A stretch of 64,000 nucleotides of DNA, taken from positions 136,241,080 through 136,305,079 of the forward strand of contig NC_077233.1 of NCBI RefSeq assembly GCF_027887165.1, read 5' to 3'. The stretch comes from Monodelphis domestica (Eukaryota). A program made the translations under genes and the position numbers. The stretch's first letter is position 1. Each line of letters starts with the position of its first letter. Under the pieces are notes generated by a model that saw nothing but the letters and a program-made list of their open reading frames with translations, was not told the origin of the DNA and did no database searches. Of the stretch, positions 1 through 27,000 are shown piece after piece.

Positions 1-24
1 CTCCCAGCCGCCAGCCCGCCTCAC

Positions 25-249
25 CTCCGCAAAGGGGCCGTGCAGCTCCCGCCAGCCCACGATGAGCTGGGCTTTCTTCTCTCCAATACGCTGCAGCCTC
101 CGCAGCTCCTTGGCAGAGCCAGTATTGAGCAGGCCTAGGATCTTCCTGCGGCTCTCGGTCAGGAGGTCTGGGGGCACCTGCAGCAGTTCCAAGGTGGTGC
201 AGAGCCTCTCAGGCTGCTCTTCCTGCTGCCCGCAGATCGGCTCAGGCTG
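25..249 (-). CDS. KIF22: KIF22 penultimate coding exon (C-terminal helix-hairpin-helix region); window starts in the following intron
   Basis: Minus-strand translation gives [75 protein letters not shown]. It matches the KIF22 C-terminal region from memory (..[38 protein letters not shown]). Acceptor is cag|cag at 250-251 (NAGNAG, so the start could be 246) and donor GTGAGG at 19-24. Length 225 nt, phase 0. Confidence 0.75.
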
Positions 250-823
250 CTGCCGGGAGGAATGGATGGAGAAAGGAGGGTATGTGGGGGATCTCCAGAG
301 GCTCCCTGCGGGTTGCAGGTAGGCAGCCAGCACCACGTGGAGGGGCTGGCCAGCTCCAGCCTTTCTTTTCCCTCATCCCTACCCTACTATTCTCTGGCAC
401 AGGGTTGATGATTGCCAGAACACACCCTATTCATTCCCACCCCAGTCTTAGACCTATCTTCAATCAACCCATCTTTCAAGTACCACCCTCCATGAAACCT
501 TCTAGAGCTGGTAGTTGTAACCCTCATTGCTTTCTCCTTTCTCTGAGTTCCCATGGCACTTGAGAGTACCTCCCATTTGGCAACTGTTTATGTGCCACCT
601 CCTGAGAGCTCTCTTTTTGTCATGGGCCTCATCTAGCTTAATTTTCCTTGTGTTTACATACTTCACCTTGACTAACTAAATACTAGTTCCAAACTAGAGT
701 TTGGGGTGTAACTCTTATTCTTAGAAGCTCAATAATTGAGTGACAAGGTGTCTTGACTTCTCAGACCTCCTTACCAACCTCTACCCTATAGGCCCAAATA
801 TCCATGTCTGCAGGTTATCTTAC

Positions 824-888
824 CTTCCTCTTACGGCTTTCTTTCTGCAGGATATGGGCCTTGCTTTGGGATGTTGTCTGCTCCTGAA
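824..888 (-). CDS. KIF22: KIF22 coding exon (basic KRK segment)
   Basis: Acceptor ctgtacctttag| at 889-890 and donor GTAAGA at 818-823. The peptide is (I)QEQTTSQSKAHILQKESRKRK, compared with human [23 protein letters not shown]. Phase fits both neighbouring exons. Confidence 0.65.
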
Positions 889-1007
889 CTAAAGGTACAG
901 ATTGGAAGAAATAATCATGTCAAAGCAGTCACCAATCCTCCCCTTTATAGTTTCCCTTTCCTTATCCAGAACTTCCACCCCCCAACTCCGTTTGTCTTTT
1001 TCCTTAC

Positions 1008-1170
1008 TTAGCCGAAAGGGTACAACCCTATTCAGAGGTTTGGTCATGGAGATTGTTTTTGAGGGAAGGGGGCAAGGTGGGGCCAGGGAGCCATTCTCCT
1101 CTTCCTCCAGTTCCTTGGGCTTCTGACTTTGTCTGTTGGCCTCTAGCTCTTTATACTTTTCCTTGAGCCT
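1008..1170 (-). CDS. KIF22: KIF22 coding exon (coiled-coil/stalk)
   Basis: Acceptor tttattcctacag| and donor GTAAGG at 1002-1007. The peptide is RLKEKYKELEANRQSQKPKELEEEENGSLAPPCPLPSKTISMTKPLNRVVPFRL, compared with human [24 protein letters not shown]...GAKPLKKAVV. 163 nt, and phase links to the next exon. Confidence 0.65.
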
Positions 1171-1434
1171 CTGTAGGAATAAATGAAAAAAGATGATCTA
1201 CTCTATTAAACACCTGAGGGCTCAAAATCTCCATTTATAAGTTTTCCAAGGCTCTAGAACAGTATGCCACTAGAAAAGATTAAGTTCCTGGCTGTATAGC
1301 TAGGGAGGGATGGAGTCAGGGTCAAACAAGTTCCAGGATGAGGAAGTTAGAAGAGTGGAAGCAAGAAGGTAGGAAGGAAACATGACAGGGTAAGGAAGGC
1401 TTCAACCAAGCCTTGAATTCTTTCCATAGTCTAC

Positions 1435-1603
1435 CTGAATCTCCAAGTCCTTTTCTTTCAAAGCCTTTTCTAGAGCTGTCCGTTCTCTTCGTGGTGTGCT
1501 TAGGATTGAAGTCCTGTGGCTCCCCTGGGAGTCTAGAATTCGATCCAGGTTTAGCAGGCGCTCTTGCACAGCTGGTTCTAGGGTATTCAGCTGCTTCAGA
1601 GGG
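1435..1603 (-). CDS. KIF22: KIF22 coding exon
   Basis: Acceptor tttatcctcag| and a weak donor cag|GTAGAC. The peptide is (S)[56 protein letters not shown], compared with human [50 protein letters not shown]. Confidence 0.7.
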
Positions 1604-3044
1604 CTGAGGATAAACGAATTTTATACTTTCCTTCTCTTTCATTTAACAGCTACCTGCTTCCCATGGCTGAATTCCCCAGCTTTCCATAATTCAGTAGGAA
1701 TATCAAATTCTCATGTCAGAAGCATCAGGTTTAGACTAAAGATCTTGATTTGAGTCTTGATTGCCACAAAAAGGTAACCTTAAGCCCCCAGCAAAACATG
1801 TACCATAATGAATGGCACAAACACCACAAATCACTACATGTATTAAGAATGAGTAAGATAGGAATAGCTCCATGGTTATAGAACTTGATCCTTGAGAAGG
1901 CCTCATAAAGTGATGGATCAATCAAGCCACTCAGACCATAAGTTGTTGACAGTAGGAATGTCAGAGGTTTTGTTTTTAAAGCAGGAAAAGCTTTAAAGCT
2001 TTAAGCAACATGAGACTTTAGAAAGAACTCACAAGGGAGAGTAAAAGGAAAAATAGTATCCTTCATTAATACTGGGATAGTGAGTTATACTTGGTGTCTG
2101 TCACATGTCCATAATTCCACATGGCACAGACTATTTTCAATTTTTTGTATAGTTTTACAATGCTCAGTCCAGAGATTCTGTATCCAGTTTATGCTCCATC
2201 AGCACTGAGGACCATTAGGTCTTCATCCTCAATAAACAGGACTGGTCTGGATAGGAAGCCCTTGGAATTGCTGAGCCCAAGACTGGAACAATCCACTGGC
2301 CTCAAGCATTTGGTACAAAGGCTGTGCTAAATGGTCAGTTGATGCTAATGACAGGAATCAAAGGCTGAAGGTCATTTTAAAGAAAAGCATTTGGGGTGTC
2401 AGGGTTAGGTCCAGTGCTGCTCACAACTAGGTCAATCACTCGAAGAACAGCACTTCAAAAGCTCTAGCATTTTTGGGCTATGTGACCTTTGGTGTGTCAC
2501 AAAACTTTCTGGGATCTTGGTTTCTTTAATTTATAAAAAGGGAATTATCACCTGCCCTGTCTAACTTTATAGGGTTGTGGTAAGGATCACATAAGAAGTA
2601 TGTAAAATGTTTTAAGCTATATTAAGCAAGCTATATTAATTTTACCTTTATTCCTCTTACACTTCTATAGTGGACTGGTCAGCTTCCTGAGGCCAAGACT
2701 AGAATTCAGAATGGTGTTGAATAGTTTTAAAGATATTAAACTAGCTTGGCCAGGGTTATCTGTATTTGTAGAGGAGAAATTAAACTTTCCTTTTTCTAGT
2801 TTATATGAACTTTTTCTCAACTCAGTGCTCTCTGAATTCTCCCCTATCCTTAAATGGACAATATCTGAAGCATTAGGATTAGATAGATGCTTTCCCTACA
2901 AAGTCATACTCTTGTGGATGGTCTTGCTATGTAGGTATGCCAAGGAAAAAGTTATTTCCTAAATTGGACTTGCTATCTCTTACTGCAAAAACCTGGAGGG
3001 AACTTATGTCCAAACCAATTTTTTTCTTTACCCTTCTGTTTTTA

Positions 3045-3200
3045 GAATCAATACAGAATATTGATTCTAAGGCAGAAGAGTGCTAAGGACTAGGCAATGG
3101 GAGTTAAGTGTTTTGCCCAGTTATTAAGGGTCTGAGGCCAAATTTGAACCCAGGACTTCCCATCTTCAGGTCTCTAACCATTGAACCGCCTAGCTGACCC
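3045..3200 (-). mobile_element. Marsupial tRNA-derived SINE (opossum SINE1/MAR1-type) in a KIF22 intron
   Basis: Reverse complement of the GGGGCAGCTGGGTGGCTCAGTGGATTGAGAG..GGTTCAAATCTGACCTCAGACACTTCC..GTGTGACCCTGGGCAAGTCACTTAACC consensus. Confidence 0.8.
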
Positions 3201-3493
3201 TCAGACCAATCCTTAAATGCTCCTTGGGCTGACCTAGGAATGTTACTTTCAGTGCCTAGATGTCATGGCAGGGTAGGACAGGTATAAAAAGTTGGGACCA
3301 GAGCTCAAATTCTTCTGAAAGCAGGAAATACAGATAGTCACAGCACTGTATACATAGGCCCTCAAGAATGAGTAATATGTTTGCATGGATATAAACCAAT
3401 TCTAATTACTAACATTATTCTTATTTAGGAGAAAGTATCAACATGATGTGGGAGATAGATGGAGGACTAAAAGGACTATCCCTTCTGTCTCAC

Positions 3494-3623
3494 CTGAGTT
3501 TGGGACAGCCAGATAGAAGTTCTGGGATACTTGTCCTGTCCTCCATTTCTTCCTGACTTCTAGTCTGCTTTGCTTCTGGAGGATCCATCAATTCCTTTTG
3601 GCCTGGCTTCACTGGGATAAAAG
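3494..3623 (-). CDS. KIF22: KIF22 coding exon
   Basis: Acceptor ttattctctttaccatttag| and donor ag|GTGAGA. The peptide is (A)FIPVKPGQKELMDPPEAKQTRSQEEMEDRTSIPELLSGCPKL(S), compared with human [34 protein letters not shown]. Split codons at both ends agree with the neighbours. Confidence 0.7.
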
Positions 3624-3765
3624 CTAAATGGTAAAGAGAATAATATAGCCATCTATCTGCTTTCAACAGCCTCAACAAGACTATAGATATTACAATACCT
3701 GATACTCAAGGTCTCAAGCTTTCCCTTCCCTGTCCTTTGTCTCTCTCCTATAATACACCTCTTAC

Positions 3766-3919
3766 CAGGGGGCTGAAGGCTCTTATGGGTGAAAGGCCGG
3801 TTGATCACTTCTTTGGACCTGGAGGCAAAGTTGAGTGATGTTACTGTATCTAGGTAGAAGCGCCTCTCTGGAGCAATATTAGCAATGAGTACACTGTGGG
3901 CTGAACCTCCAAGGGAGTC
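3766..3919 (-). CDS. KIF22: KIF22 coding exon (end of motor domain and neck)
   Basis: Acceptor tcttccctag| and donor g|GTAAGA. The peptide is [51 protein letters not shown], which is near-identical to human [51 protein letters not shown]. Confidence 0.88.
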
Positions 3920-4306
3920 CTAGGGAAGATAGGAAAAAATTGAGTCAAGAGCTAGGTGTTTTCTATCATGGTCTACCCCTATTTCCAAAGGCACAGCTTC
4001 TATCACTGCCTCCTCCTCTTCCCTTTATCTTGGCCATTCTCAATCCTCAGCTTGGGATAGTGGAAAGAACACTGGCCTGGGAGTTACTATTTACTAACTG
4101 TGTGACTTTGGACAAGTTAACTAATCTCTGAGCTCGTTTTTTTTACCTATAAAATAAGGATGCCATTTGACCTGCCTCTCTTAGAATTACTCTGAGCTTC
4201 AGAGAAAGAATGTAAAACTGTAAAGTACTTTAAAAACAGAAGAGATTCTTAATAGAAATGAGATTCTTTGACCCCAAGGAAGAAATCTGAATGCCTCTTT
4301 TTTCTA

Positions 4307-4621
<315 letters not shown>

Positions 4622-4728
4622 TCAGAGGCCCAATTTTGGTAACTTTTTTTCTGCCTCTACTTCTTATCACCTATCCCAAATCCAGATCCAAAATACTCCA
4701 ACCCTCAATATGCTGACAACAAACCCAC

Positions 4729-4938
4729 TTTAACCAGGAGCACAGCATGGCTTCGGGAGGACCGTTGGTTGAGCCGGGTAGCTCCCACAGTCCGATTTCT
4801 GCTGGCTGGCAGGAAATGTTGTTCAAAGTCAGTGAAGGAAGCAATGGGTTTTTGGGTGAGTCCAGGGATCAGGATGTTCCCCCATCGGTCTTCTCTGATC
4901 ACTAGGTCTCCTGAAGCAGGGGCAAGGAGGTCCAATAC
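4729..4938 (-). CDS. KIF22: KIF22 motor-domain exon (switch I)
   Basis: Acceptor tgtctttcccag| and donor aaa|GTGGGT. The peptide is [70 protein letters not shown], with switch [11 protein letters not shown]. 210 nt. Confidence 0.92.
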
Positions 4939-5164
4939 CTGGGAAAGACAGAAACAAGGTAGAATTCCTTATGTATAGCATCCTGACCTTCTATAGCTGG
5001 GCCTCACTACTATTCTCACTTTCTCTCCTTAAATAAGATCTAAGTTTTCTATTCAACCAAGTCCTCTCCTTAAGAGACTTTTTTTCTTGACTTTTCCCAC
5101 CTATCCCAAAGATTTAGGTTTCCAATTCCTATCTCAATCTCTCCTAACTTAAGAGGAGCCTTAC

Positions 5165-5319
5165 CTTCTCTTGATAGATTTCCAAATAGGACATGGAGAC
5201 AGCAAAGGCCCAGGGTCGCCCTTCTGCACCCTCCTCCCAAGTGAGCTGCAAGAGGTCTTTAAGGGCCCGAGGGATAATGCCAGGCTGCTCTGGGCTGCCT
5301 AGCATTGTGTATGTTTTCC
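5165..5319 (-). CDS. KIF22: KIF22 motor-domain exon
   Basis: Acceptor tcttcccacag| and donor aag|GTAAGG. The peptide is (G)[51 protein letters not shown]. The split codon completes the P-loop GPTGAGKT. Confidence 0.92.
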
Positions 5320-5829
5320 CTGTGGGAAGAAGACAAGAGGAAACAGTAAAATTACTGGCTTTCACATTGAACAAAGTAATAGCAATATTGTAAGATGATC
5401 AACTATGAATGACAGCTATTCTCTGCAATACAGTGATCTAAGACAATTCGAAAGAACTTGAGACAAAAAAAAAGCTCCCCATTTTCAGAGGAAGAATTGA
5501 TGGATTCTGAATGCAGAATGAAGCATATTTTTATCCCCCATTTTAAAAAAAATGAAGCTTCTTCCACAACATGACTAATACTGAAATATGCTTTTCATGG
5601 TTACACATGTATAACCTATATCAAATTGCTTTACTGTCTTAGGGAGGGGATGGGAAAGGAGGGAGAGGATTTGGAACTCAGAATTTTAGAAAACAAACAT
5701 TAAAAATTGTTTTTATTTGTAACTGGGAAAAAAACCAAAATATTTTCTAAAACGACTGGTTTTTAAACAGTGTCATATCCCTTCTTGCCCTCTGCTCAAA
5801 GCCCTGGACGCATTCTATTCTTCCCTAAC

Positions 5830-5957
5830 CTGCGCCTGTTGGACCATAGGCAAGCACACTGGCATTCTGTCCATTCATCAAGTGGCGAAGGATGGGCTGG
5901 ACAAAGCCAACATAGATGTCTTGCTGAGTGCTTGTTTCCCCATAGAAGGCATCAAAC
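5830..5957 (-). CDS. KIF22: KIF22 motor-domain exon (P-loop start)
   Basis: Acceptor tttctggtttgtag| and donor g|GTTAGG. The peptide is (Q)[42 protein letters not shown](G), compared with human [43 protein letters not shown]. Confidence 0.92.
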
Positions 5958-6193
5958 CTACAAACCAGAAAGATAGAAGTCAGACAAATCAGTCAACTAT
6001 AGGGGAAAGAGTTCATAAAACATATAGCACAGAGAGGGATATGATAGCTTCCCTGAGAGTCAGGGGCATGTGTAGATGTGCATGAGGAACAGCAATAAAA
6101 GAGTCAACACAACAGTCCCCACAAGTAATGTCAATGTGAGGGTCCAGGGGATTCTGAAGCAGTGGGATAAAGAAGGGGCCCCAGGGCCATTAC

Positions 6194-6389
6194 TGGTATT
6201 TGAGTGTCTCCTGACTATTTCTCCCATTGGCAATCTCCAAGGAACAGCTGTCCAGGCCCCGTACACAGGAGCTCTCACTGGTGCTGCTGGCCTCTTCCAC
6301 AAAGGGCCTAAGTCTCACAGCCACTCGTACTCGTGCCACAGAGGGGCGACGGCTGGTTCTGCCTTTGCTCATCTGGCAACGTGTAGCAC
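6194..6389 (-). CDS. KIF22: KIF22 exon 2 (N-terminal region and motor-domain start)
   Basis: Acceptor ttctcctcttcag| at 6390-6391 and donor ca|GTAATG. The peptide is (G)[64 protein letters not shown](Q), compared with human [58 protein letters not shown]. Confidence 0.88.
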
Positions 6390-7160
6390 CTGAAGAGGAG
6401 AAGACGGAACATTAGGCTACTGGGATTTATGATTCTCATCTAGTACTTGCCTTTTGATGTTTGGCTGGATTGCCTGATCTATTCCTTTAGCTATAAAGTT
6501 AAGAGGATCTACCTGTGTGATCTCTAATTCTCCTTGTTCTGACATATAAGCAAGGATATGGGGGTCAGAGAGTATAAAATACTTTTGGTGAATAACAGGT
6601 AGAGATTAGTTTGTAGAATAAGGCACATAGAATGGGAGATAAGGCAGGAAAGCGATATTAGGATTTAAAAAAAAACTTAGTTTGGGGCAACCTGAGGGGG
6701 AGGCAGAATACACAGGATTTATTTACTGGTTATATATGAAGAATGAAAGAGGGAAGAATCAAAGTTGACATTGAGGTTTCAAGCTTGAGTAACGAGAAAG
6801 GTAGTGATGTAATAGAGGAAGTCAGGAAGGTAAACTGATTTTAGTTTTTGTGATGAAATTGAGAAACCAATGGACATCCAGATGAAAATGTCCAGCAGGC
6901 AGCTGAAGATGTACATCTAGGCCTGGAGAAAGATCAGAACTAGAAATGCAGATTTGGGAAAAGGAGGCAATGTCTTAAGTATAAAACCATTCAATTTCAC
7001 ATATAATCCCCTTTGTACAGTCAATTATAATAGAAAAGGGGTAAATTATAATTTATACCTGACAAATGAGGAGACTAAGATTCATAGAATAATTTAATAA
7101 TACTTGCCCAGTGTCATGCAAGTAATACTCAATAGTCATGGGATTAAAAAGAGCTCTAGA

Positions 7161-7360
7161 GGGGGCAGCTAGTTAGTTCAGTGAATTGAGAGTCATGCCT
7201 AAAGATGGATGGCCCTGGGTTCAAATGTGGATTCAGACACTTCCTAGCTTGGTGACCCTGGGCAAGTTAGTTAACCCCACTGCCTAGCCCTTACTGCTCT
7301 TCTGCCTTGGAACCCATATACAGTATTGATTTAAAGACAGAAGGTAAGAGTTTAAAAAAA
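7161..7360 (+). mobile_element. Marsupial tRNA-derived SINE, A-rich tail
   Basis: gggggcagctagttagttcagtgaattgagagtcatgcc...ggttcaaatgtgg...gtgaccctgggcaagttagttaacccc...tttaaaaaaa. Confidence 0.85.
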
Positions 7361-8559
7361 GGCAAGAGAGCTGTAGATAGGGAATCGGAAAATCCGACTC
7401 TGCATTCTGGCTCTAATACATAAAATGGCTATGTGCAAATTGATTCACTGTTCTGCAGCATCTAAATCCAGTATTCTTTCCAATAGACCATTTCTCCTTT
7501 CCTTTAATTCTTGTTCAAGAATGTTACTAGATTACATATGATTGTCTAATATTGTTCCCTAATTGTGCTAGCTCTAACAGGTCAGGAACAGGGTAACAAG
7601 GTATGGCAGGCAATACACAATAGTGTATTGTGAATCAGATTTTGTTGTGAGCTCTGACTCTGCTTCAAATCAGCTCTGTGATAGAAATCAATTTCCCTCT
7701 GGGGATTTCCTTGTCTATAAGGTGAGGTTGGACTATATAATTTCTAAGATACCTTCCATATCTAATATTTATTTCCCAATACACTTTTTCCCCACACTGA
7801 ATTTTACAATACAGTAAAATAACAAAATAACTGAATTTGACAAGCCACACATTCCATACCCTCAAGCGCATACCTTTTCACAAAGACAAGATGTCATCAC
7901 ATAGTATTCCATAGCTCATTCCAGTTCTAAAATGCTGACTATGAAAACAAAAATTGCAATCCTTGCTGACAATTAAGTAAAAAAAACCCAAAAAAACCTC
8001 TCCAGTGAGTAACAATGTTCAAGTAATGTAACAAGAAACATTACAACAGTTAAAAGAAAGGAAGGTGAACAAAAACATTACCACTACTTGTATCCTCTAG
8101 TCTTCAAACATAAAATGGAAAAGGGGCTATAAACTCATTTATGGATGATAAATACTAAACACATCTTTCTAAAAGTAGAATTACTCATATATATGTAGTC
8201 AGTGCCCTTGACAAATAGTCCCACAAGTATACCATCCCATATTTCCGACTCCAACTGAAATTGCTTACATTTATATGAAATTTTACAATTAAAAACATAC
8301 TTTCATGTCTATCATATTATTAGATCTTCACTATAATCCTGTAAGGCACCCAATGCAAATATCTGTTTTCCATATTTACAGGAATGAAATAGTCATTAAG
8401 TATCAGTCAGGATTCAGACTAAGGTCTTCTGGCTCAACATTTAGAACTCTTTCCACTAGTCCACATTGCCTGAGAGTTATTAAGAAGCAATAGAATAGCC
8501 TGATGTGTTTTTCATCTTTTAAAGATCCCAAGGGGTGGTGGGCAAGAGAAAGGATCTTT

Positions 8560-8765
8560 TATTTATACTCATTATGGTCATTTTTGGCTTCTCTACCATT
8601 CTCCCCTCCTCCCCCTTTACTCTTCAGCTTTCTTTTGAGAATTGACCTCCTCCGTTAGATTACAAGCTCCTTGAGGGCAAGAACTTTTCAATATTTGTAT
8701 TCCAGTGTTTAGCACATAGTAGGCACCTCATAAATGCTTACTGGCTACTGACTATTTAACAAACT
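8560..8765. mobile_element. MIR/Ther-type SINE fragment
   Basis: ttagattacaagctccttgagggcaagaac...gcacatagtaggcacctcataaatgcttactggctactgac hallmark. Similar fragments lie at 12930-13060, 39300-39440, 53105-53235, 55030-55140 and 55480-55730. Confidence 0.6.
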
Positions 8766-9374
8766 GGCCATGCAATGTCTTAAATTTAGGGTGATACTTG
8801 AAAGATAAACCTAAAGCAAGTTGCAATCATTCTGTAACTTAATAAAATGCTCTTAAAGAATTATGACCAAATGAAAATCCATCATCTTGTGCATATTCTG
8901 ATGATGAGTTTCTTTGAACTTGGTTGCACTGGTCCTTGGATGTCATATTTCACCTATCAGCTTGAAAGGATCTGCCAGTTTGTTCTACTGGCTTTCAAGA
9001 ACCTAAGACCACTTCCACACCACAATGAAGAATCAAATTAGGTCTAGTGAAGGTACTATTGAGTGCAGGTGTGGTGTAGTGGAAAAATAACTAATTTTAG
9101 AATAAGAAGGCCTTGGATCAAATCTTAATTAACAATAGCTTTGTGACAAGCAAAATATCTGAATTTCAGCCTCCACATATGGAAAAAGAGGATCATAACA
9201 CTCTATAGATCATAATGTGACAGGAAAGTTGTGTGTAAAACAACAAAACTAATGTTCGGAGATGAAAAAGATGGCTGGATTGATAGGCTCCTGTGACAAA
9301 AGTCCCTTCTTCACCAGGTAATACACACCAAAGGATCTGATTTATCCTGGTCCATTTGGAGAATCAGAGGGAAA

Positions 9375-9420
9375 AAAATTCATATATATATGTATATGTA
9401 TATGTATATATATATATATG
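9375..9420. repeat. (TA)n/(TATG)n compound simple repeat
   Basis: catatatatatgtatatgtatatgtatatatatatatatg. Confidence 0.85.
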
Positions 9421-10013
9421 AAGGGCTGCCTACAATTTCTAGATTGCAGTAGGAAAAGCTTTCCCCTTCCTCGTCAAGTTATGGCTCAGGACAACCTTAA
9501 TAAACCGTCTAGATACCTCTTCCATTTGGCCTAAAATTGCCAGCCATTCCCAAGGAGCGTTTTCATTTCTGCCAAAGCATTGGTTCTACGGCAAACCCCT
9601 GCACCTCCACCAATTTTGTCTTTTTTCTTGTTGGCTCGAGTTTAGTGTCGAAAAAAGATTAGAAAGGATATAGAAATAAGTTGATTTTTTTGTTTTGTTT
9701 TTAGTAAAAGTCTTCTGTCCTTAGGGAAATATAACACTTATTAAATATTTTTTTCATAAAATTTGTTAATAACCTTCATTTGCCTTTTCTTTCTTTCATT
9801 TTCCCCCCTAGAGTCGACAGGTACGGGAGGGATAGTGTCTCTCAGCAGCAGTCCTTTAAGATGGAGTTGAACTCAGTGAGTCCTCACCATAAAAGGATCA
9901 TAAACTTACTGGGTTAGATCAACCTAGTTACCCCTAAGCTGCCAAGTTTTGTTTTAAATTATTTTTAGCTGCACCATATATGATTCCTTGTGCCATTTTC
10001 TTTTGTCTGTTTT

Positions 10014-10020
<7 letters not shown>

Positions 10021-10068
<48 letters not shown>
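10021..10068. repeat. (AT)n microsatellite
   Basis: About 24 perfect AT dinucleotide units. Confidence 0.95.
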
Positions 10069-10074
<6 letters not shown>

Positions 10075-13000
10075 GAATTGTAACTTTGGACAAGTCACTT
10101 CCCCTCAGTTTCACCATCTGTAAAATGTAGTTCATCTACTTCATGGGATGGTTATATGGACAAAATACAAAAACAGAACTGTGACTTCAATGGTATAGGA
10201 AATTCATCTCCCCAAACAGTCCTGTACCTTCTCTGCTACTTAACAGCTAATAATAACAAGCATTTTAAGATTTGCTAAGTCCTTTACTTACATCATCTCA
10301 TTTGATCCTTGCAACAACCTGAGATTGTTGGTACCATTAGTACCATTACCTTCCCCAATTTACAGATGAAGAAACTAGAAAGTGGCAGAGGCAAGATTTG
10401 AAATCTAATTTTTTTCATTTCACTGCTCTATCTACAATGCCATGTAACTGCTTAGTGGCTAAGACTTATATTGCCTAGAGCACTGACAGATTAGGTCAAC
10501 TGTCCAGGGTCACATAGCTGGTATGTTACAGGCAGGACTTGAATTTAGGTTTCCCCAAGTGCAAAGATTCTTTATCCATTCTGCTAAGCTGTCCCACTGT
10601 GAATAAAATAGGAAAATGAAGAGCTGTAAAAAGCTAACCAATCAAGAAGCATTTATTAGTGTAATTGTTAATTGACCTCAAATGTTTATTAGGAAAAAAA
10701 GTTTGTTTTTCTTCTTTGCCCATAACTCACCCCCCTCCCCATATTTACTTCCCTTCCTTTCTAGAACCCAAAAGACTAGTATTCCCAACTCCTCCCAGGA
10801 TTCAGGAAATTTCTTCCCTCCTTTCTACACTATTCCACCTGAGCCCAAAGGCTTTGGACTGGTCTTAAACTTAAGTGTGGCAGGAACAATCTGGAGCTTC
10901 CAGGTCAAATAAAAAAATGCTTCAAGTGAGAAAGGGAATTCAGGTAATGGGAAGCCCACAGTCAAGATCACATATGAGTGAGCAACCATCACTATAAAGA
11001 AGCAGATAGTTTGAAATAAAATATTCAAGAAGGCAAAGGATATGGGTTTACAGCTAATGATAACTTACCCAGAAAAACTTGAGTTCAATTCTACAGGGGA
11101 ATAAAATGGATCCTTAATGAAATAGAGGATGTTCAAACATATCCAGGCACACACAAAGAGTGAAAGGTATACAGGTACATTTCATTCAACAAGGTCATGG
11201 GAGAGAAAATGGAAATAGAGGGTAGTTTAAGGGAGGGATTAATCCTAAGCAAAACAAACTCTTAATAAGAATGAACAAAAAACATTTACAATTCTTTGTG
11301 GTGGTGAAGAAGTGGAAACTGGGGGAATCCCCATCAACTAGGGAATGGATGAAAAAGTTATGTATATGTGATGAAATTACACTGCTTTAAAAAAGGATAA
11401 AAGGGACAGTTTCCAACAAACCTGAAGACTTTTATGAACTGATGCTGAGATGCAAACAAGTCAATTTATATAAGGAAGACAACTTTGAAAGACTTGGAAA
11501 ATGTGATTCCAAAGATTCATGGTGAAATATATTTCCCATCTCTTGATAGAAAGTGAAGGATTCAAGATGCAAATAAAATTTAGACATGGTCAGTATCAGG
11601 TGTTTTTTGTTTTTAAAGAGATTCAAGAAACCTTAGAGATTAAGAGTTTGGACTAAAAGCTCAGTCTCTTGAAGTCTAGCTAGTTCAGTATCCTTTTAAT
11701 TATAGTATAAGTCTCTCTCAAGGTACAAGTCTAATTTTAGAGTCCATAAGCATACTTGTCTGACAAAACTCCAAAAAGCTCACAACAGAATACAATTAAA
11801 TGCCAAGTTGTAGATGTGATGCATAAAAGTCACAGGTACTCAGAGAAAGATTAATCAGTAGTAATGGAAGGCTTAAATAAAAACACTAGTCCCTAACTGC
11901 AAAGGTTTGTGAGTTTGGAATAGAGAGTCAAGCAAGGAGACAGCACCCTACCAATCAGGCATTTGTAAGAACAAAAGAACCAAGAATCTAAGCTGTCATT
12001 GAGTCAATGTGGAATCTAGAAGCCCCAAAACTTGTAGCCTAGTAAGATTCGATTACCCCCAGTTTAGTTAGCTTGAAGGTGAAAGTCTCTAGTTTGTCCT
12101 GGTCACCTGAGTTTCTCCCAGAGGGAAAGTCCAATTTCACTAGTCTCAGACTAACAACAATAGACCTTAAAGTAGTTTGAGTGGGGACAGCTAATCGGAT
12201 CAGTGTTGAGTATCTCTTTTGTCCCAGAGGTTTCTCTGCTTAGGCCAAAGTCCTTTACCTAGATAAGCCAACCCTTTTGTGTCCATTGTAAAGCATCAGC
12301 CCCTCACTGTTATTCCTGTCTGGGACATCTCATTTTCCTTTGTTACCATGGTAAAGTCAACCAACTATACCTCTCATCCTCAGTCCCCAAGTACCCCTAG
12401 AAAGGTATCTAAGCTTCCCACTTTAATAGCTCTTTGGAGTTGTCATCTAGCTCATGGCACTTCCAGGAGTTTGGTGACCAGAGTTTACAGAGTCTGGGAC
12501 TCTGCTTGGTTTGATAGCACACAGCTCGTCAAGGAGAACTAATTTTAGTGCTAAACTTCCTTCCTTAATTAAAGAGTGGTTTTTCTATTGAATAGTTCTG
12601 TGTTTTTTCCTAGTTTACAATTATTAGCAAGACACCTAAATCTCTTTGAGCCTTGGATCTCTAAAAAATGAAGAGGTTAGTTTAGATGGCTTCTAAGGCT
12701 CCTTCCAGGTAATTCTATCATTCTATGACCCTAACAGCAATCCTCTAAAGCATGACAGCTATGACAACTTAAAACCCCTACAAATGGGCTATTCTGCTTT
12801 GTGTAAAGAAACAATATAAATTATCTGACCATCACTAGTTTTCATTCAACAACTGCTAGTAGCCTTCCCAGTATTATTTTCATTTTATCCTGATGTATCT
12901 TGTTTGTTCATAGTTGTTTCCATGTTGCCCCCACCATTAAGACCAATATGGTATTTGAGAGCAGGGGCTGTCACTTGTTTTTCTTTGCATCCCTGGAATT

Positions 13001-13593
13001 TGGTACAGTTCTTGGCATGTAGTAGCATCTTAATAAATGCTTCTTGACTGACAAATTCCTGGTTTGTCCCTGAGTCCTCAGTGACTTATCCTCCCCTCCA
13101 TCTCTCCCACATCAGATCTTGCATTAGACTCCAGTTCCGAGATCTAGCCCTTTCTTCACCTCGATCTCATTTCTAGCTCTGTTTTAATTCGTGATTTTCA
13201 CCTCCTTTCCTTTGGGGGGTGTTGGAGGGACCTCTCTTTCAATTCTCAGGCCCGTCAGGACTGGGTTTCAAGACCCTATTCCCTACTTTTACTCCCTCTT
13301 CCCCTTTTTCTCTTTGAGCATCTCTCCCCATCTCAATATCGCTGCCCTTGACCTTACCCCGTCCCACTCTGGAGAAAGAGGGAAGGGGAAGGGTGCTAGG
13401 ACGTCTGAAGAAGCTCGCACCGCGCCTCCTCTTGCGCCTGCGCCTCCCTCGCAGAACTGACCCCACCTCCACTCTCCCCATCCCCCATCCCGCCTCCCGG
13501 CCAGGAAACCTCAAAGGGATAACTTCTAGAGGCAAACCTCTACTGAGGCAGCGAAGACCTTCTTTTTACCTCAGCTGCCCCACGCGCACCTAC

Positions 13594-13630
13594 CTGTAGC
13601 AGCAGCCACAGCCGCAGCCGCTACCGCCAT
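13594..13630 (-). CDS. KIF22: KIF22 exon 1 coding part (ATG at 13630-13628)
   Basis: ATGGCGGTAGCGGCTGCGGCTGTGGCTGCTGCTACAG followed by donor GTAGGT. It encodes MAVAAAAVAAAT, and splicing to exon 2 gives ...[10 protein letters not shown], compared with human MAAASAAAISGAGRCRLSK. The start context is aagacATGG, and an in-frame TAA sits two codons upstream. It lies in a CpG island. Total in-window CDS is 1863 nt in frame. Confidence 0.7.
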
Positions 13631-13800
13631 GTCTTAGGCTTCCGCTCCGCCGTCTTCACTACCCCCCCCCCAGCCCAAAAACCAACTCCTCTTCCACTGG
13701 AGCTGGTTCCTCCCGGCGTTCGAATTCCCCGGCAGTCCCGCCTCCTCCGGTCCTTTTGACCAATGGCGAGCACCATACTAGTTGAGGCGCCGGAAGAGGT
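13631..13800 (-). promoter_or_regulatory. KIF22: Putative KIF22 core promoter / 5'UTR with inverted CCAAT (13760-13764), GC box (about 13737-13742) and CHR-like TTCGAA (13719-13724)
   Basis: On the gene strand the order is ATTGG - GGCGGG - TTCGAA - about 90 nt - ATG. This is the CCAAT plus CHR arrangement typical of G2/M-phase genes. No TATA box is present. The elements sit inside the CpG island. Confidence 0.45.
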
Positions 13801-14117
13801 AGGATCGTCTCCAGCTGCCTCCCTGCGGATCCCCATTTGTCCTGCCAGATGTCCTGGCTTTTAGGCCCTGATTTGCCTCTCCTTTCCCCAAATCTTCATC
13901 TCCAGGAGCGCCCGGACCCCTTAGGGCGGGACAGCCGCGGCCGTCCTGACTGTTTGCTTCTGGAAGCTGCGCCAACTTCGGCCCCTGCCTCTGCGCCCTT
14001 TGCCTGTACTTTATGGGCCATCTTGGGCGCCTCTCCAGCGGTCAAGTCGTCCCAGATGACTCCCTTATCTGTTTATCCCATCCCGACTTCTCTTCCGATC
14101 TCCACCTGGCGTGTAGA

Positions 14118-14136
14118 CCCCCCCCCCCCCCCCCCC
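14118..14136. repeat. Poly-C (C19), which is G19 on the KIF22 strand, inside the CpG island and immediately followed by palindromic CCAATTGG (14138-14145)
   Basis: Read directly from the sequence. Confidence 0.95.
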
Positions 14137-14825
14137 GCCAATTGGTTGTCCCTTGGACATCTCAATCGTAGCAAATTCAAAGCTGAATTCATTAGCCTTC
14201 CCATTCCCGCCCCTCCCCCTCTTCCAAACGCCCCTATTCTGTCGAAAGCACCAACATAAATCCTCCCAGTTCCTCCAAAACCTAGGGGTCCTCCTCGAAT
14301 CCTCACCCCCACCCCAAAGTCTCTTCTATCCTGCCATCACCCTGGAGCAGACCCTTCAGTATCTCATGCCTGGACTTTTATAATATCCTTGCTGGTTGTT
14401 CTCCCAGATTCAGGTCTCTTCCTATTCTTATTCATCCTTCAATCAGCAGTCAAAGCAATTTTCCTAAAGTGCAGGTCTCCCCTCCTCCCTTTTCAATCAA
14501 TTCCCATAGCTGCCTATAACTTCCAGGATCTAATAGAAAATGTTCTGTTGGCATTGCAAATGCCTTCAAAAGCTGCCTTCCTCCTACCTTTCCAATCTTC
14601 TCATACTTTTCTCTATCCCCCTTCCCTTCCATACATCAAAGATCAAGTGACGCTGGCCTTTTCTCTGTTCCTCCCACAAGACACTCCATCTCCTGACTCC
14701 AGGCATTTTTATTGGTTGTCTGTCCCATGCCAGGGATTCTCTATGTTGTCTCCACCTCCTGGCTTGCTTCAAGTCTCAGCTAAAGTCCCACTTTCTTTTC
14801 CTTTTTTTTTAAACCTTTACCTTAA

Positions 14826-21174: not shown

Positions 21175-21490
21175 TTAGCAGCTGCTGCATTCACTGGGGT
21201 AAACATCCCAGTGAAGGCCAATAGCATTGATGAGGGAACCAGAGCGGCCGCTGATGAATCGAAGAACGGTGTTGGGATACAGTGGGGCAGCATTGAAGCT
21301 GGTGCCTGTATCTTTGCCAAAAGGCAGGTATCGGCCCTTGTCTGTCACAAAGACCAACTTCCGAAGGTAGTATTTATATTTGCCAGATACTTGGATGATT
21401 GACTCTCCGGGGTACAGAAAAATCTCCTCCAGGTCACCCTGGGAACCCCCAACATAGTTGCTCCATTCTTTGCCATATCGAACCTGAAGT
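21175..21490 (-). CDS. ZG16: ZG16 last coding exon (jacalin-like lectin domain, stop at 21175-21177)
   Basis: Acceptor tcctccctag| and phase 2. The peptide is (G)LQVRYGKEWSNYVGGSQGDLEEIFLYPGESIIQVSGKYKYYLRKLVFVTDKGRYLPFGKDTGTSFNAAPLYPNTVLRFISGRSGSLINAIGLHWDVYPSECSSC*, compared with human LQVRYGKVWSDYVGGRNGDLEEIFLHPGESVIQVSGKYKWYLKKLVFVTDKGRYLSFGKDSGTSFNAVPLHPNTVLRFISGRSGSLIDAIGLHWDVYP. Confidence 0.9.
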
Positions 21491-21950
21491 CTAGGGAGGA
21501 AGGAGGGAGAAGGAAGGAAAAATGGAGACAGATATTAAGCGTCTTACTAGCAAGAAACACAGAATAATGTAATAGATAAGAAAACTCCCTCCCTCTCTTT
21601 CAAAACTAGATATCATAGGGAATAGTGACAGTGTAGGTGGTATAGCAAAAGAGATTTCTAGAGATTCATAGGAGGTAAACATAGAAACCAGTAACAAATA
21701 TCTACCCATAAATATTCAAAATATCAGTAATAAGCAAAGTGAACTAGTGATCCTAAGTGAGAAGTTTGACTCCTAAATATGCATGAGACTTGGTAGGATA
21801 AGATTCATGATTGGAATATATCCATGGGAGGATATGCCTTATTCAAAAGCAACAGGATAGGTAAATGAAGGGATGATAGAGAAGTAAGTGAGGAAATCAA
21901 GAACAAGAAAATGACTAATAGTGAGGGCCAGCCCTGTTCAGAATTCTCAC

Positions 21951-22083
21951 CCCACAATGTAGTATCTGTTGACTCGGATTCGAATGGCAGTGATGGGGCC
22001 ATCTAGCTGGTTGCCCGAGTGAGAGAAGCGCTCTCCTCCCCCTCCTCCATACTCTCCATTGTAGGAGGATGCCCGTGGCTGGA
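21951..22083 (-). CDS. ZG16: ZG16 coding exon 2
   Basis: Acceptor ttatctctag| and donor gg|GTGAGA. The peptide is (V)QPRASSYNGEYGGGGGERFSHSGNQLDGPITAIRIRVNRYYIV(G), compared with human IQARSSSYSGEYGSGGGKRFSHSGNQLDGPITALRVRVNTYYIVG. Confidence 0.9.
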
Positions 22084-22268
22084 CTAGAGATAAAATAATT
22101 GGTAAGGATGAGGGTAAAGAAGGCTGCAGTCCTACCAAGACTCAGTCATCATCTTCTGGAGTCTTCCCATGGACCTGCATCCTTTTCAGACCCAACCTTG
22201 AATTTCCACTCCATATGCCTCTTAAATCCCAGGTGCCCTCTCTGGACCTAGGGACCCCTATATCTATA

Positions 22269-24099: not shown

Positions 24100-27000
24100 C
24101 TATGCCCCAGATGGACCCCAAGGTCCATCCTGCCTATTTTTGTAAATATTCATCCATATCACCTAGATTGGCAAATTTATTGCCATATAATTGGGCAAAA
24201 TATTTTTTTAATAATTGCCTTACTTTCCTCTTCATTGGAGGTGAGTTCTCCCTTTTCATCTATGATACTGTTAATTTGATTTTCTTCTTTCCTTTTTTAA
24301 ATTTGATTGACCACTACTTTGTCTATTTTGTTTTTTCAAAATACGAGCTTCTAGTCTTACTTATTAGTTCAATAGTTCTATCACTTTTGATTTTATTAAT
24401 TTCTCCCTTAAATTTTAGGATCTCTAATTTGGTTTTCTTCTGGGGATTTTTTATTTGTTCGCTTTCAAGTTTTTTGATTTGCATGTACAAATCACTTACC
24501 TCTGCCCTCCCTAATTTGTTACTATATAAACTCAAGGATATAAGTTTCCCCCTGAGTAGTGCTTTGGCTGCATCCCATAGGATTTGAAAGGATGTCTCAT
24601 CTTTGTCATTTTCTTCAATGAAATTATTGTTTCTATGATTTGTTCTCTAACTAACCAACTTTGGAGAATCATATTGTTTAATTTCCAATTAATTTTTTGA
24701 TTTGGCTCTCAATGTACCCTTACTGATCATTATTTTTATTGCCTTATGATCTGACAAGGTTGCATTTATTATTTCTGCTTTTCTGCATTTGTATGCCATG
24801 TTTTTATGACCTAGTATATGGTCAATCTTTGTGAATGTACCATGTGCTGCTGAAAAGAAGGTGTATTCCTTTTTGTCCCTATTTATTTTTCTCCATATAT
24901 CTATTAACTCTAATTTTTCTAAGATTTCATTCACCTCTTTTACCTCTTTCTTATTTATTTTTTTATTTGATTGATCTAAATTTGATAGTGGTAGGTTCAG
25001 GTCTCCCACTAGCATAGTTTTACTATCTATTTCCTCCTTCAATTCTACTAGTTTTTCCATTAGAAATTTGGGTGCTATACTATTTGGTGCATACATGTTG
25101 TTTGTCTATACTCTCTTTAGTCAGGATGTTTTTACCTTCCCTATCCCTTTTGATCAGGTCTATTTTGACTTTGGCTTTGTCAGATACCATGATTGCAGCT
25201 CTTGCCTTCTTTCTATCAGTTGAGGCCCAATAGGTCTTGCTCTAACCTTTAATTCTGACCTTGTGAGTATCTACTCCCCTCATGTGTGTTTCTTGAAGAC
25301 AACATATGGTAGGGTTTTGGATTCTAATCCACTCTCCTATTCATCTATGTTTTATGGGTGAGTTCATCCCATTCACATTCAGAGTTATGATTGTCACTTG
25401 TGAATTCCCTAGCATTTTGATATCCTCTCCTAGTTCTGTCCTTTCTTCTTTTTCTATATCCTTTTAAACCAATGGTTTACTTTTAACCAATCCCCCTAAT
25501 CCCCTCCATTGATATTCTTCCCTTTCTGGTCCCTCCCTTTTTGTTCCCTTTTTTTTTTTAGGGTCTGTTAAGTTCCCTACTCCCTTTCCTTCCCTCCCTT
25601 TTTGAACTCCCTCTCCTCTCCCCCACTTAGTTTCCCCTTCTCTCTTACCCTGTAGGATAAGATAGAATTAAAGATCTCAATGGATCTAGATGCTCTTCCT
25701 TCTCAGAGTTGATTTCTCTGAGAGTAAGGTTTAAGTATTCTCTATTAGCACTCTCTTTCTCTCCTTCTTATAAGAATATTTTCCCCTCCCCTTCCCATGT
25801 GTATCTTTGTGTGAAAGAGATTATTCTATTTATTTTGTTTCTTCACGTATCTCTTGGTATCCCTCTTCAATTCTCCCCCCCCCCTTTTTCTTTTCCTTTC
25901 ATATCATCTTTTAGCCCTTAATGCCCCAATCTTTTCCTATGATTGATTCTTATAATTACTATTATAATAAATATTGTTTTTGAGAGTTACAAATAACATT
26001 TTCCATTTATTAATATATATAATTTTATCTAATTGTATCACTTAAAGAAGAGAGTTTGAATTTAAAAAATAACATTTTTCTCCTTTTCCCTCTTTTTCTT
26101 ATTTACCTTTTCATATTTCTCTTGATCTTTGTGTTTGGATATCAAACTTGCCACTTAGTTCTGGTCTTTTCTTTACAAATACTTGGAAAGCTTCTATTTT
26201 GTTGAATGCCCATATTTTCCCCTGGAAATATATAGTCAGTTTTTATGGATAGATGATTCTTGGTTGAAGACCCAGTTCTCTTGCCTTTCTGAATATCATG
26301 TTCCAGGCTTTGCGGTCCTTTAGTGTGGAAACTTCCAGGTCTTGTGTGATCCTCATGGGTGCTCCTTGGTGCATCTTGGTGCACTCATGGGTGCTCTTTT
26401 TGGCTTCTTGTAGAATTTTCTCCTTAGCTTGAAAGCTCTGGAATTTGGCAATTACATTCCTGGGAGTTGTCTTTTGGGGGATTAAGTATAGAGGGTGTTC
26501 TATGAACTTTTTCCAATGTCTATTTTTTCCTCTTGTTCAAGAACATCAGGGCAGTTTTCTTGGATGATTTCTTGTATTATGATGTCAAGATTTCTGTTTA
26601 TTTCTGACTTTTCAGGTAGACCAATGATTTTCAATTTGTCTCTTTGTGATCTGTTTTCCTGATCTGTCACCTTGTCAGTGAGATAGTTTATGTTTTCTTC
26701 TATTTTGTCAGTCTTTTGACTTTGCTTTATTAATTTTTGCTGTTTTGCAAGATCATTGGCTTCCAGTTGCTCAATTCTGGTCCTTAAGGCCTGTTTTTTT
26801 TGCTTTAACCTTTTGCTTTTCTGCTATAATTTTTTGATTTTCAGCTATAATTTTTGACTCTCTTTTTGAACCATTTCCCACTTCTCTTGCCAGAAGGCTT
26901 CCATCTTTTTGATAAGCTCTGATTTAAATTCTTCCAGAGCTTGTGGACAATTTCCATTTTTTTTAGAAGGTTTTGTTTTTGTTTTAATTTCCTTCTGTAT

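What the first reader, a model, noticed from the sequence alone, without database searches (positions are those of the whole stretch)
13631..13800. KIF22 promoter shows the CCAAT + CHR architecture of DREAM/MMB-FOXM1-controlled G2/M genes
On the gene strand, an inverted CCAAT box (tcgccATTGGtca, plus 13760-13764) is followed 36 bp downstream by TTCGAA (TTYGAA CHR-like, 13719-13724) and then about 90 nt later by the ATG. A GC box (GGCGGG) lies between them, and no TATA box is present. This CCAAT-then-CHR spacing near the TSS is the established signature of late cell-cycle genes, and KIF22/Kid is a mitotic kinesin. Conservation of this layout in a marsupial would support CHR-dependent regulation of KIF22 across therians.
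Basis: partly seen in the sequence, partly recalled or inferred. Interest (0 to 1): 0.55.

Follow-up and report, generated by a model that had tools for sequence, protein, structure and literature searches.

The report
Conserved cell-cycle switch in KIF22 promoter
The motifs are real and sit in the promoter of a marsupial KIF22 (mitotic kinesin) gene, and the TTCGAA element is the best-conserved piece of that promoter across mammals, but KIF22 has been a published CHR/DREAM target gene since 2014, so this confirms known biology.

Summary
On the minus strand, ATTGG (13764-13760), GGCGGG (13742-13737), TTCGAA (13724-13719) and the ATG (13630) lie as described. There is no TATA box. The gene is KIF22: exon 1 splices in frame to exon 2, and the best protein hit is sugar-glider KIF22 at 96%. 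ZG16 and C16orf54 lie upstream, as I recall for human 16p11.2.

The composite motif alone is not statistically unusual (4 matches in the window, 9.8 expected). Conservation makes the case. Across this marsupial, sugar glider, platypus, orangutan, muntjac and bank vole, the two longest conserved runs in the promoter are AATTCGAA and ATTGGT. The vole has TTCAAA, the inverse canonical CHR. A muntjac KIF22 retrocopy begins 1-2 nt after the CHR, which places the mRNA 5' end there.

The CCAAT box is less constant: it is lost in sugar glider and vole. Sturgeon and paddlefish carry a similar CCAAT + TTCAAA pair upstream of a likely non-coding exon 1.

Published work already lists KIF22 as a gene with a conserved CHR (Müller 2014) and as a p53-p21-DREAM target (Fischer 2016). 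LIN9, B-MYB and FOXM1 bind its promoter by ChIP (Wolter 2017).

Verdict: interpretation supported, already known, low interest.

The parts
13719..13724 (-). CHR element TTCGAA (palindromic). It is the core of the conserved 8-mer AATTCGAA at 13719-13726.
   Evidence: Searches give the sequence. Searches show it identical in Petaurus, platypus, Pongo and Muntiacus, and TTCAAA in Myodes. It is the longest conserved run in the 6-mammal alignment. TTCGAA was validated as a DREAM-binding CHR in Bub1 (PMC4176359).
13760..13764 (+). CCAAT box (reads ATTGG on the gene strand). The + strand reads TTGACCAATGGC, which by my reading fits the flanks NF-Y prefers.
   Evidence: It is conserved in platypus (30 nt from the CHR), Pongo and Muntiacus (39 nt). 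It is lost in Petaurus (ATTTG) and Myodes (ACTGG). ATTGGT is the second-longest conserved run.
13737..13742 (-). GC-box-like GGCGGG between CCAAT and CHR (putative Sp/KLF site)
   Evidence: GAGGCG, AGGCGG and GGCGGG are the only 6-mers shared by all 5 other mammalian promoters. One search shows invariant columns there.
13790..13796 (-). CTTCCGG, an ETS-type (GABP/ELK-like) motif upstream of the CCAAT box
   Evidence: this 7-mer is shared with 4 of 5 other mammalian promoters. It is visible (CTTCCGGCG in therians).
13594..13630 (-). Coding part of KIF22 exon 1 (ATG...ACAG, MAVAAAAVAAAT + first base of Gly), followed by a GTAGGT donor at 13593
   Evidence: It joins in frame to exon 2 and matches human KIF22 from Met14. 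The orthologous exon 1 is seen in Petaurus and platypus.
13631..13718 (-). Probable 5'UTR / TSS zone between the CHR and the ATG; contains a G10 run at 13662-13671
   Evidence: Inferred from the Muntiacus retrocopy, whose homology to the parent gene starts 1-2 nt 3' of the CHR. Also inferred from the published rule that CHRs lie on or very near the TSS. No TSS data exist for this species.
22..6389 (-). KIF22 exons 2 to penultimate (motor domain and C-terminal HhH region). The gene runs off the window start.
   Evidence: tblastn. One search shows Kinesin, Microtub_bd and HHH_3 Pfam domains on the orthologues.

Best explanation
This is the core promoter of the marsupial orthologue of KIF22 (Kid). 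Its central control element is a single CHR (TTCGAA, 13724-13719) placed at or just upstream of the transcription start. The mechanism below is inferred from the established CHR pathway and from human KIF22 data. In G0/G1 and after p53-p21 activation, the MuvB core contacts the CHR through LIN54 as part of DREAM (p130/p107-E2F4-DP) and represses the gene. In S/G2 the same MuvB core at the same site exchanges partners for B-MYB and then FOXM1, which permits or boosts G2/M expression. Basal activity comes from upstream activators: NF-Y on the CCAAT box 40 nt upstream, an Sp/KLF-type factor on the GGCGGG box, and an ETS factor on CTTCCGG. There is no conserved CDE 4 nt upstream, so this is a CHR-only promoter. 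Shown here: gene identity, motif positions, deep conservation of the CHR, and partial conservation of the CCAAT box. Inferred: the binding factors, the timing, and the TSS in this species.
For: Synteny with ZG16 and C16orf54 (DUF4689, E 5.6e-112) comes. Conservation: GGAATTCGAA is identical in this window, Petaurus, platypus and Pongo; Muntiacus has GAAATTCGAA; Myodes has CAATTCAAAA. The vole TTCAAA is one CpG transition away and is the inverse canonical CHR. AATTCGAA is the only 8-mer of the 300-nt promoter shared with 4 of 5 other mammals. It is also the longest run of columns with at least 5 of 6 identical. Window versus Petaurus identity is 90% (79/88) across 13770-13683, against about 71% for the surrounding HSP. 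Of the ten validated CHR hexamers, only this one is positionally conserved within +/-250 nt. TSS proxy: the Muntiacus processed retrocopy starts 1-2 nt after the CHR. Literature: TTCGAA is a validated CHR bound by DREAM, CHRs sit on or close to the TSS, and KIF22 is in Table 1 of conserved-CHR genes (PMC4176359). KIF22 is among 210 p53-p21-DREAM-CDE/CHR targets (PMC4705690). LIN9, B-MYB and FOXM1 ChIP is strongly positive at the human KIF22 promoter (PMC5355254).
Against: There are no binding, expression or TSS data for this species. The composite motif is not enriched over chance in the window. The CCAAT box is lost in two of six mammals, so the 'CCAAT + CHR' layout is not obligatory. Only one CCAAT box is present. 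[quoted passage not shown] The conserved block coincides with the likely TSS, so part of its conservation could reflect start-site selection rather than LIN54 binding. The turtle locus showed no TTYRAA in 4 kb upstream of its annotated ATG, although the true promoter there was not identified.
Confidence: 0.85

Rival explanations
1. The motifs are a chance co-occurrence of short words in an ordinary CpG-island housekeeping promoter and have no specific cell-cycle role.
For: ATTGG-N25-45-TTYRAA occurs 4 times in the window against 9.8 expected. A second nearby pair, TTTGAA 14181-14176 with CCAATTGG 14138-14145, is not conserved in Petaurus. This shows that such pairs do arise by chance.
Against: The TTCGAA block is kept at the same place from platypus to primates while the flanks diverge. 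Human ChIP and CHR-screen data also exist for KIF22.
Confidence: 0.03
2. The conserved AATTCGAA block is mainly a start-site or core-promoter determinant, or the site of another factor, and MuvB binding at KIF22 is incidental.
For: The Muntiacus retrocopy 5' end abuts the block, so the block overlaps the TSS. KIF22 mRNA did not respond to LIN9, B-MYB or FOXM1 knock-down in MDA-MB-231 cells. GGGGAATTCG also resembles an NF-kappaB-type decamer at 9 of 10 positions (my own reading of the sequence).
Against: By my reading, the substitutions tolerated in evolution (TTCGAA to TTCAAA; flanks GGGG/GGGA/GGGC/GCGG) keep a TTYRAA hexamer but break the NF-kappaB-like decamer. CHRs characteristically sit on the TSS. 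KIF22 is DREAM-bound and p53-p21-repressed in genome-wide data.
Confidence: 0.08
3. The CHR works essentially only as a DREAM repressor site (quiescence and p53-dependent silencing). G2/M-phase activation is driven by the upstream activators (NF-Y, ETS, Sp) rather than by MMB-FOXM1.
For: Wolter et al. 2017 found binding without dependence on MMB-FOXM1 for KIF22. In Müller 2014 the common feature of CHR mutants is de-repression in early cell-cycle phases.
Against: That result comes from one cancer cell line. The CCAAT box is dispensable in two lineages, which argues against NF-Y as the sole driver.
Confidence: 0.3

Closest known systems
Human/mouse KIF22 promoter CHR (Müller et al. 2014, NAR 42:10331, Table 1; Fischer et al. 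2016; Wolter et al. 2017)
   Same: It is the orthologous gene with the orthologous element. Orangutan has the identical GGGGAATTCGAA with ATTGG 39 nt upstream (40 nt here) and a GC box between them.
   Different: Eutherians have a 13-codon N-terminal extension, so the CHR is about 31 nt from their ATG against 88 nt here. The GC box here is GGCGGG rather than GGGGCGGGG. The species is a marsupial that has not been tested experimentally.
Bub1 promoter TTCGAA CHR (validated non-canonical CHR, Müller et al. 2014)
   Same: It has the same hexamer, which binds DREAM in vitro, and the same class of late-cell-cycle gene.
   Different: It is a different gene. The Bub1 element was tested by mutation and ChIP; the one here was not.
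Classic CCAAT/CDE/CHR promoters (CCNB2, CDK1, CDC25C)
   Same: They are TATA-less, with CCAAT upstream of a CHR that lies at the TSS, and show G2/M expression.
   Different: Here there is a single CCAAT box, where I recall 2-3 boxes phased about 33 bp apart in the classic promoters. There is no CDE: the 5 nt that precede the 4-nt spacer read GCCGG here, ATCGG in Pongo and GGCGC in platypus, and they are not conserved. The CHR is TTCGAA rather than TTTGAA.

Membership tests
CHR (cell cycle genes homology region) promoter element / DREAM-MMB-FOXM1 target | Hexamer equals one of the ten experimentally validated CHR sequences | tested here: met
   TTCGAA lies at 13724-13719. TTCGAA is one of the three commonest validated CHRs (PMC4176359).
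CHR (cell cycle genes homology region) promoter element / DREAM-MMB-FOXM1 target | Phylogenetic conservation of the element | tested here: met
   It is identical in Petaurus, platypus, Pongo and Muntiacus, and reads TTCAAA in Myodes. It is the top conserved block in both alignment-based and alignment-free tests.
CHR (cell cycle genes homology region) promoter element / DREAM-MMB-FOXM1 target | Located on or within about 200 nt of the TSS | tested here: inconclusive
   No TSS data exist for this species. The element is 88 nt upstream of the ATG. In Muntiacus a processed retrocopy starts 1-2 nt after the CHR, which supports a TSS at the element in that eutherian.
CHR (cell cycle genes homology region) promoter element / DREAM-MMB-FOXM1 target | In vivo binding of MuvB/DREAM/MMB-FOXM1 proteins | not testable with these tools
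   Only human literature is available: LIN9, B-MYB and FOXM1 ChIP-qPCR positive at KIF22 (PMC5355254), and DREAM-bound in Müller 2014.
CHR (cell cycle genes homology region) promoter element / DREAM-MMB-FOXM1 target | Late cell-cycle (G2/M) expression, and de-repression in G0/G1 on CHR mutation | not testable with these tools
   Human KIF22 is in the late-cell-cycle set. I found no reporter mutagenesis of the KIF22 CHR in the searched literature.
CDE/CHR tandem element | GC-rich CDE (…GCGG-like) exactly 4 nt upstream of the CHR | tested here: not met
   The positions before the 4-nt spacer read GCCGG (window), ATCGG (Pongo) and GGCGC (platypus), and are not conserved. This is therefore a CHR-only promoter.
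NF-Y CCAAT box of G2/M promoters | CCAAT pentamer with favourable flanks, upstream of the CHR | tested here: met
   The + strand reads TTGACCAATGGC at 13760-13764, 40 nt (start to start) upstream of the CHR. The judgement that these flanks favour NF-Y is my own reading of the sequence.
NF-Y CCAAT box of G2/M promoters | Conservation, and multiple CCAAT boxes phased about 31-33 bp apart | tested here: inconclusive
   It is conserved in 4 of 6 mammals and lost in Petaurus and Myodes. There is only one box near the CHR. The next CCAAT (14138) is 380 nt away and is not conserved. The 31-33 bp phasing criterion is recalled from memory, not checked in a paper here.

The most novel reading that the evidence does not exclude
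The CCAAT-plus-CHR module of KIF22 may predate the split of ray-finned fishes and tetrapods. Sturgeon carries GGGCGGG ... CTGATTGGCC - 39 nt start to start - TTCAAA, about 150 nt upstream of a GTAAGT donor and 1.8 kb upstream of the ATG exon. In paddlefish these two blocks and the donor region are the only blocks the two species share in that stretch by BLAST, despite a 21-nt deletion between the two blocks. On this reading the CHR toggles between TTCGAA and TTCAAA by CpG decay (also seen in the vole) while staying within TTYRAA. The CCAAT box is repeatedly lost (sugar glider, vole), which implies that the CHR, not NF-Y, is the indispensable element of this promoter.
Probability: 0.5. Interest if true: 0.25.

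Novelty: already known. Interest (0 to 1): 0.15.

Why it matters
It matters little beyond confirmation. It shows that a sequence-only reader can correctly recognise a DREAM/MuvB-controlled promoter. It extends a published human/mouse CHR annotation for KIF22 to marsupials and monotremes, and probably to chondrostean fishes. It gives a small natural experiment: two mammalian lineages lost the CCAAT box while the CHR persisted, and one lineage converted TTCGAA to the inverse canonical TTCAAA. That is consistent with the CHR being the dominant constrained element. It opens no long-standing question.

Tried and rejected
(1) Look-ups of the Petaurus X2 and Pongo isoform-5 proteins found no locus, because only the longest product of each gene is indexed. 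Cluster members P0122 and P0124 worked.

(2) Muntiacus P0004 turned out to be an intronless retrocopy, not the gene. I re-used it as a TSS proxy.

(3) The supplementary tables of Müller 2014, which would name the exact KIF22 CHR, are not held. That the published CHR is this TTCGAA is therefore inferred: it is the only positionally conserved validated hexamer within +/-250 nt.

(4) The turtle (L008) and fire-bellied toad (L009) loci have their ATG in exon 2 and no recognisable promoter in the 6 kb fetched. They are uninformative, and I do not count them as absence.

(5) The upstream pair TTTGAA 14181-14176 with CCAATTGG 14138-14145 was considered as a second module. I rejected it because it is not conserved in Petaurus.

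(6) A CDE 4 nt upstream of the CHR was considered and rejected.

(7) NF-kappaB-like, HSE-like and GAS-like readings of GGGGAATTCGAA were considered. I rejected them on spacing and on the pattern of tolerated substitutions; this is my own reading of the sequence.

(8) A statistical test of the composite motif in the window showed no enrichment.

Full report
**Observation.** On the minus strand the sequence reads ...CTCTTCCGGCGCCTCAACTAGTATGGTGCTCGCCATTGGTCAAAAGGACCGGAGGAGGCGGGACTGCCGGGGAATTCGAACGCCGGGAGG...(88 nt)...ATGGCGGTAGCGGCT.... A script confirmed ATTGG at 13764-13760, TTCGAA at 13724-13719 and ATG at 13630-13628. It found no TATAAA-type word on the gene strand nearby. The region is a CpG island (GC 0.58-0.64, CpG o/e 0.6-0.8) over about 13300-14300. 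The 'GC box' is GGCGGG (13742-13737), one base off the canonical GGGCGG.

**Gene identity.**
- The ATG at 13630 opens 37 coding nt (MAVAAAAVAAAT + G) that end at a GTAGGT donor.
- Joined to the AG acceptor at about 6390, this gives GGT-GCT-ACA-CGT-TGC (G-A-T-R-C), in frame and colinear with human M14-AAASAAAISGAGRC.
- An independent database search with the assembled N-terminal 369 aa returned only proteins named KIF22. The best was 96% to Petaurus breviceps (sugar glider), against 81-86% to eutherians and monotremes. The window is therefore from a marsupial other than Petaurus.
- The whole locus aligns to the Petaurus locus at about 70-78% identity.
- Upstream lie ZG16 exons (21175-22138, minus strand) and a C16orf54-type ORF (43161-43814, plus strand; Pfam DUF4689, E 5.6e-112). 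This is the gene order I recall for human 16p11.2. The ZG16 (Jacalin)-KIF22 adjacency was also seen in the fetched platypus, Petaurus and Muntiacus loci.

**Is it more than chance?** Not on its own. The pattern ATTGG-N25-45-TTYRAA occurs 4 times in the window against 9.76 +/- 3.15 in shuffles. A second such pair 400 nt upstream (TTTGAA 14181-14176 with CCAATTGG 14138-14145) is not conserved in Petaurus. The case rests on position and conservation.

**Conservation.** I fetched orthologous loci, each with the CDS start at a known coordinate:
- platypus L002, Petaurus L003, orangutans L004/L005, bank vole L006, muntjac L007;
- a muntjac retrocopy, L001.

Upstream of each ATG the same layout appears:

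| Species | Sequence |
|---|---|
| Platypus | GGGGATTGGCTGAGGGGCCGGGACCGGCGCGGAATTCGAACGC |
| Petaurus | CGCCATTTGTCGAGAGGACCGGAGGAGGCGGGGCCGCCGGGGAATTCGAACGT |
| Pongo | CGTGATTGGTGGAGCCTGGGAGAGGGGGCGGGGCATCGGGGAATTCGAATGG |
| Muntiacus | CGTGATTGGTGGAACCCAGTGGAGAGGGCGGGGCAGCGGGAAATTCGAATAG |
| Myodes | CGTGACTGGTCGAATCTGATAGAGGGGCGGGACCCGGGCAATTCAAAAGAG |

- In the six-species alignment (A1), the two longest runs of columns with at least 5 of 6 identical bases are AATTCGAA (13726-13719) and ATTGGT (13764-13759).
- Alignment-free, AATTCGAA is the only 8-mer of the 300-nt promoter shared with four of the five other species. The best 7-mers add CTTCCGG (13796-13790, ETS-like) and GAGGCGG (the GC box).
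- Window versus Petaurus identity is 79/88 (90%) over 13770-13683, against about 71% for the surrounding HSP.
- Of the ten CHR hexamers validated by Müller et al., only this one is positionally conserved within +/-250 nt in all six species.
- The vole variant TTCAAA is one CpG transition from TTCGAA and is the inverse canonical CHR. Inverse CHRs are functional in Ube2c and Plk4.
- The CCAAT box is less constant. It is present in this window, platypus (30 nt from the CHR rather than 39-40), Pongo and Muntiacus. It is destroyed in Petaurus (ATTTG) and Myodes (ACTGG), and no replacement CCAAT lies within about 200 nt of the CHR in either species (the nearest is about 215 nt upstream in Myodes and about 480 nt in Petaurus).
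- No CDE is conserved 4 nt upstream of the CHR.

**TSS.** No transcript data are available for this species. However, the muntjac retrocopy L001 lacks intron 1, and its homology to the parent gene begins at AGAGAGGCGGGCCC, 1-2 nt after TTCGAAT in L007. Retrocopies are copies of mRNA and are often 5'-truncated. The mRNA 5' end in that lineage therefore lies at or upstream of the base just after the CHR. This fits the published rule that CHRs lie on or very close to the TSS.

**Deeper conservation (exploratory).** In turtle, toad, sturgeon and paddlefish the ATG is in exon 2.
- The turtle and toad flanks showed no recognisable promoter.
- In sturgeon, 1.8 kb upstream of the ATG exon, the sequence reads GGGCGGG...CTGATTGGCCAG...(39 nt start to start)...CGAAATTCAAAAAAG, followed about 150 nt later by AAG|GTAAGT.
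- In paddlefish, the CCAAT block (25 of 26 nt identical), the CHR block (22 of 23) and the splice-donor region are the only sensible BLAST matches to this stretch. A 21-nt deletion lies between the two motif blocks.
- This suggests, but does not prove, that the module is older than mammals.

**Comparison with what is known.**
- Müller et al. 2014 (PMC4176359) showed that TTCGAA binds DREAM, validated it in Bub1, and listed KIF22 in Table 1 among 148 DREAM-bound late-cell-cycle genes with evolutionarily conserved CHRs.
- Fischer et al. 2016 (PMC4705690) list KIF22 among 210 p53-p21-DREAM-CDE/CHR targets.
- Engeland's 2017 review (PMC5729532) includes KIF22 in one of its gene tables; I read only that table row, not its heading.
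- Wolter et al. 2017 (PMC5355254) found strong LIN9, B-MYB and FOXM1 ChIP signals at the KIF22 promoter. KIF22 mRNA was nevertheless independent of MMB-FOXM1 depletion in MDA-MB-231 cells.
The supplement naming the exact element is not held. That it is this TTCGAA is inferred.

**Mechanism.** Based on the established pathway, LIN54 of the MuvB core binds the CHR at the TSS. As DREAM it represses in G0/G1 and after p53-p21 activation. As MMB-FOXM1 it permits or boosts G2/M expression. NF-Y (CCAAT), an Sp/KLF factor (GGCGGG) and an ETS factor (CTTCCGG) supply basal activation. This is a CHR-only promoter with a single CCAAT box. The repressive arm is better supported than the activating arm for this gene.

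**Verdict.** Novelty: already known. Interest is low (0.15).

Noticed in passing
L001 9970-12000 (Muntiacus reevesi CM018481.1) vs L007: Muntiacus carries an intronless KIF22 retrocopy with an intact 646-aa ORF, annotated as a hypothetical protein. Its 5' end begins 1-2 nt after the parental CHR, so it lacks the parental promoter.
   Followed up: partly
window 13300-14300, minus strand; G19 at 14118-14136, G10 at 13662-13671: The KIF22 promoter is strongly G-run-rich on the sense strand: 37 runs of G>=3 per kb against 11.5 per kb window-wide, and only 9 C-runs. It has three G4-type motifs. A 2026 paper (PMC13556083) reports G-triplet-rich human and mouse KIF22 promoters that form composite G4s with a MAZ enhancer in vitro, so this property seems shared with this marsupial.
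   Followed up: partly
window 14138-14181: A palindromic CCAATTGG abuts the G19 run, with a canonical TTTGAA 32 nt further upstream on the gene strand. This second CCAAT/CHR-like pair is not conserved in Petaurus (TTTGGA / CCGTTTTG) and is probably chance.
   Followed up: yes
window 13790-13796: CTTCCGG(CG), an ETS-type motif, is conserved in all five therians examined, about 70 nt upstream of the CHR.
   Followed up: partly
window 6390-13593: Intron 1 of KIF22 is about 7.2 kb here. Most of it aligns to the shorter Petaurus intron at 68-79% identity, with gaps that probably mark lineage-specific insertions.
   Followed up: no
window 21175-22138 (-) and 43161-43814 (+): These are the neighbouring genes. 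ZG16 (jacalin lectin) exons lie on the minus strand. A single-exon C16orf54-type ORF (Pfam DUF4689, E 5.6e-112) lies inside the 43-44 kb GC-rich patch. This is the gene order I recall for human 16p11.2.
   Followed up: partly
window 24689-25096 (-): A 135-aa ORF has a weak endonuclease/exonuclease/phosphatase match (E 3.6e-5, just under Pfam's cut-off). It is most likely a LINE-1 ORF2 fragment.
   Followed up: no
L002 9700-9835 (platypus): The platypus KIF22 promoter carries a tandem array of about 9 copies of GAGGGAGGTGCGC about 120-250 nt upstream of its CCAAT box. The array is absent from the therians examined.
   Followed up: no
L010 1032-2978 / L011 2861-5058 / L008 1-2060: The gene upstream of KIF22 differs among non-mammals: PAGR1-like (PAXIP1_C) in sturgeon, CDIPT-like in paddlefish and MVP in tortoise. 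By my recollection these are 16p11.2 genes that lie downstream of KIF22 in human, so the neighbourhood has been rearranged while KIF22-MAZ adjacency is kept in several of them.
   Followed up: no
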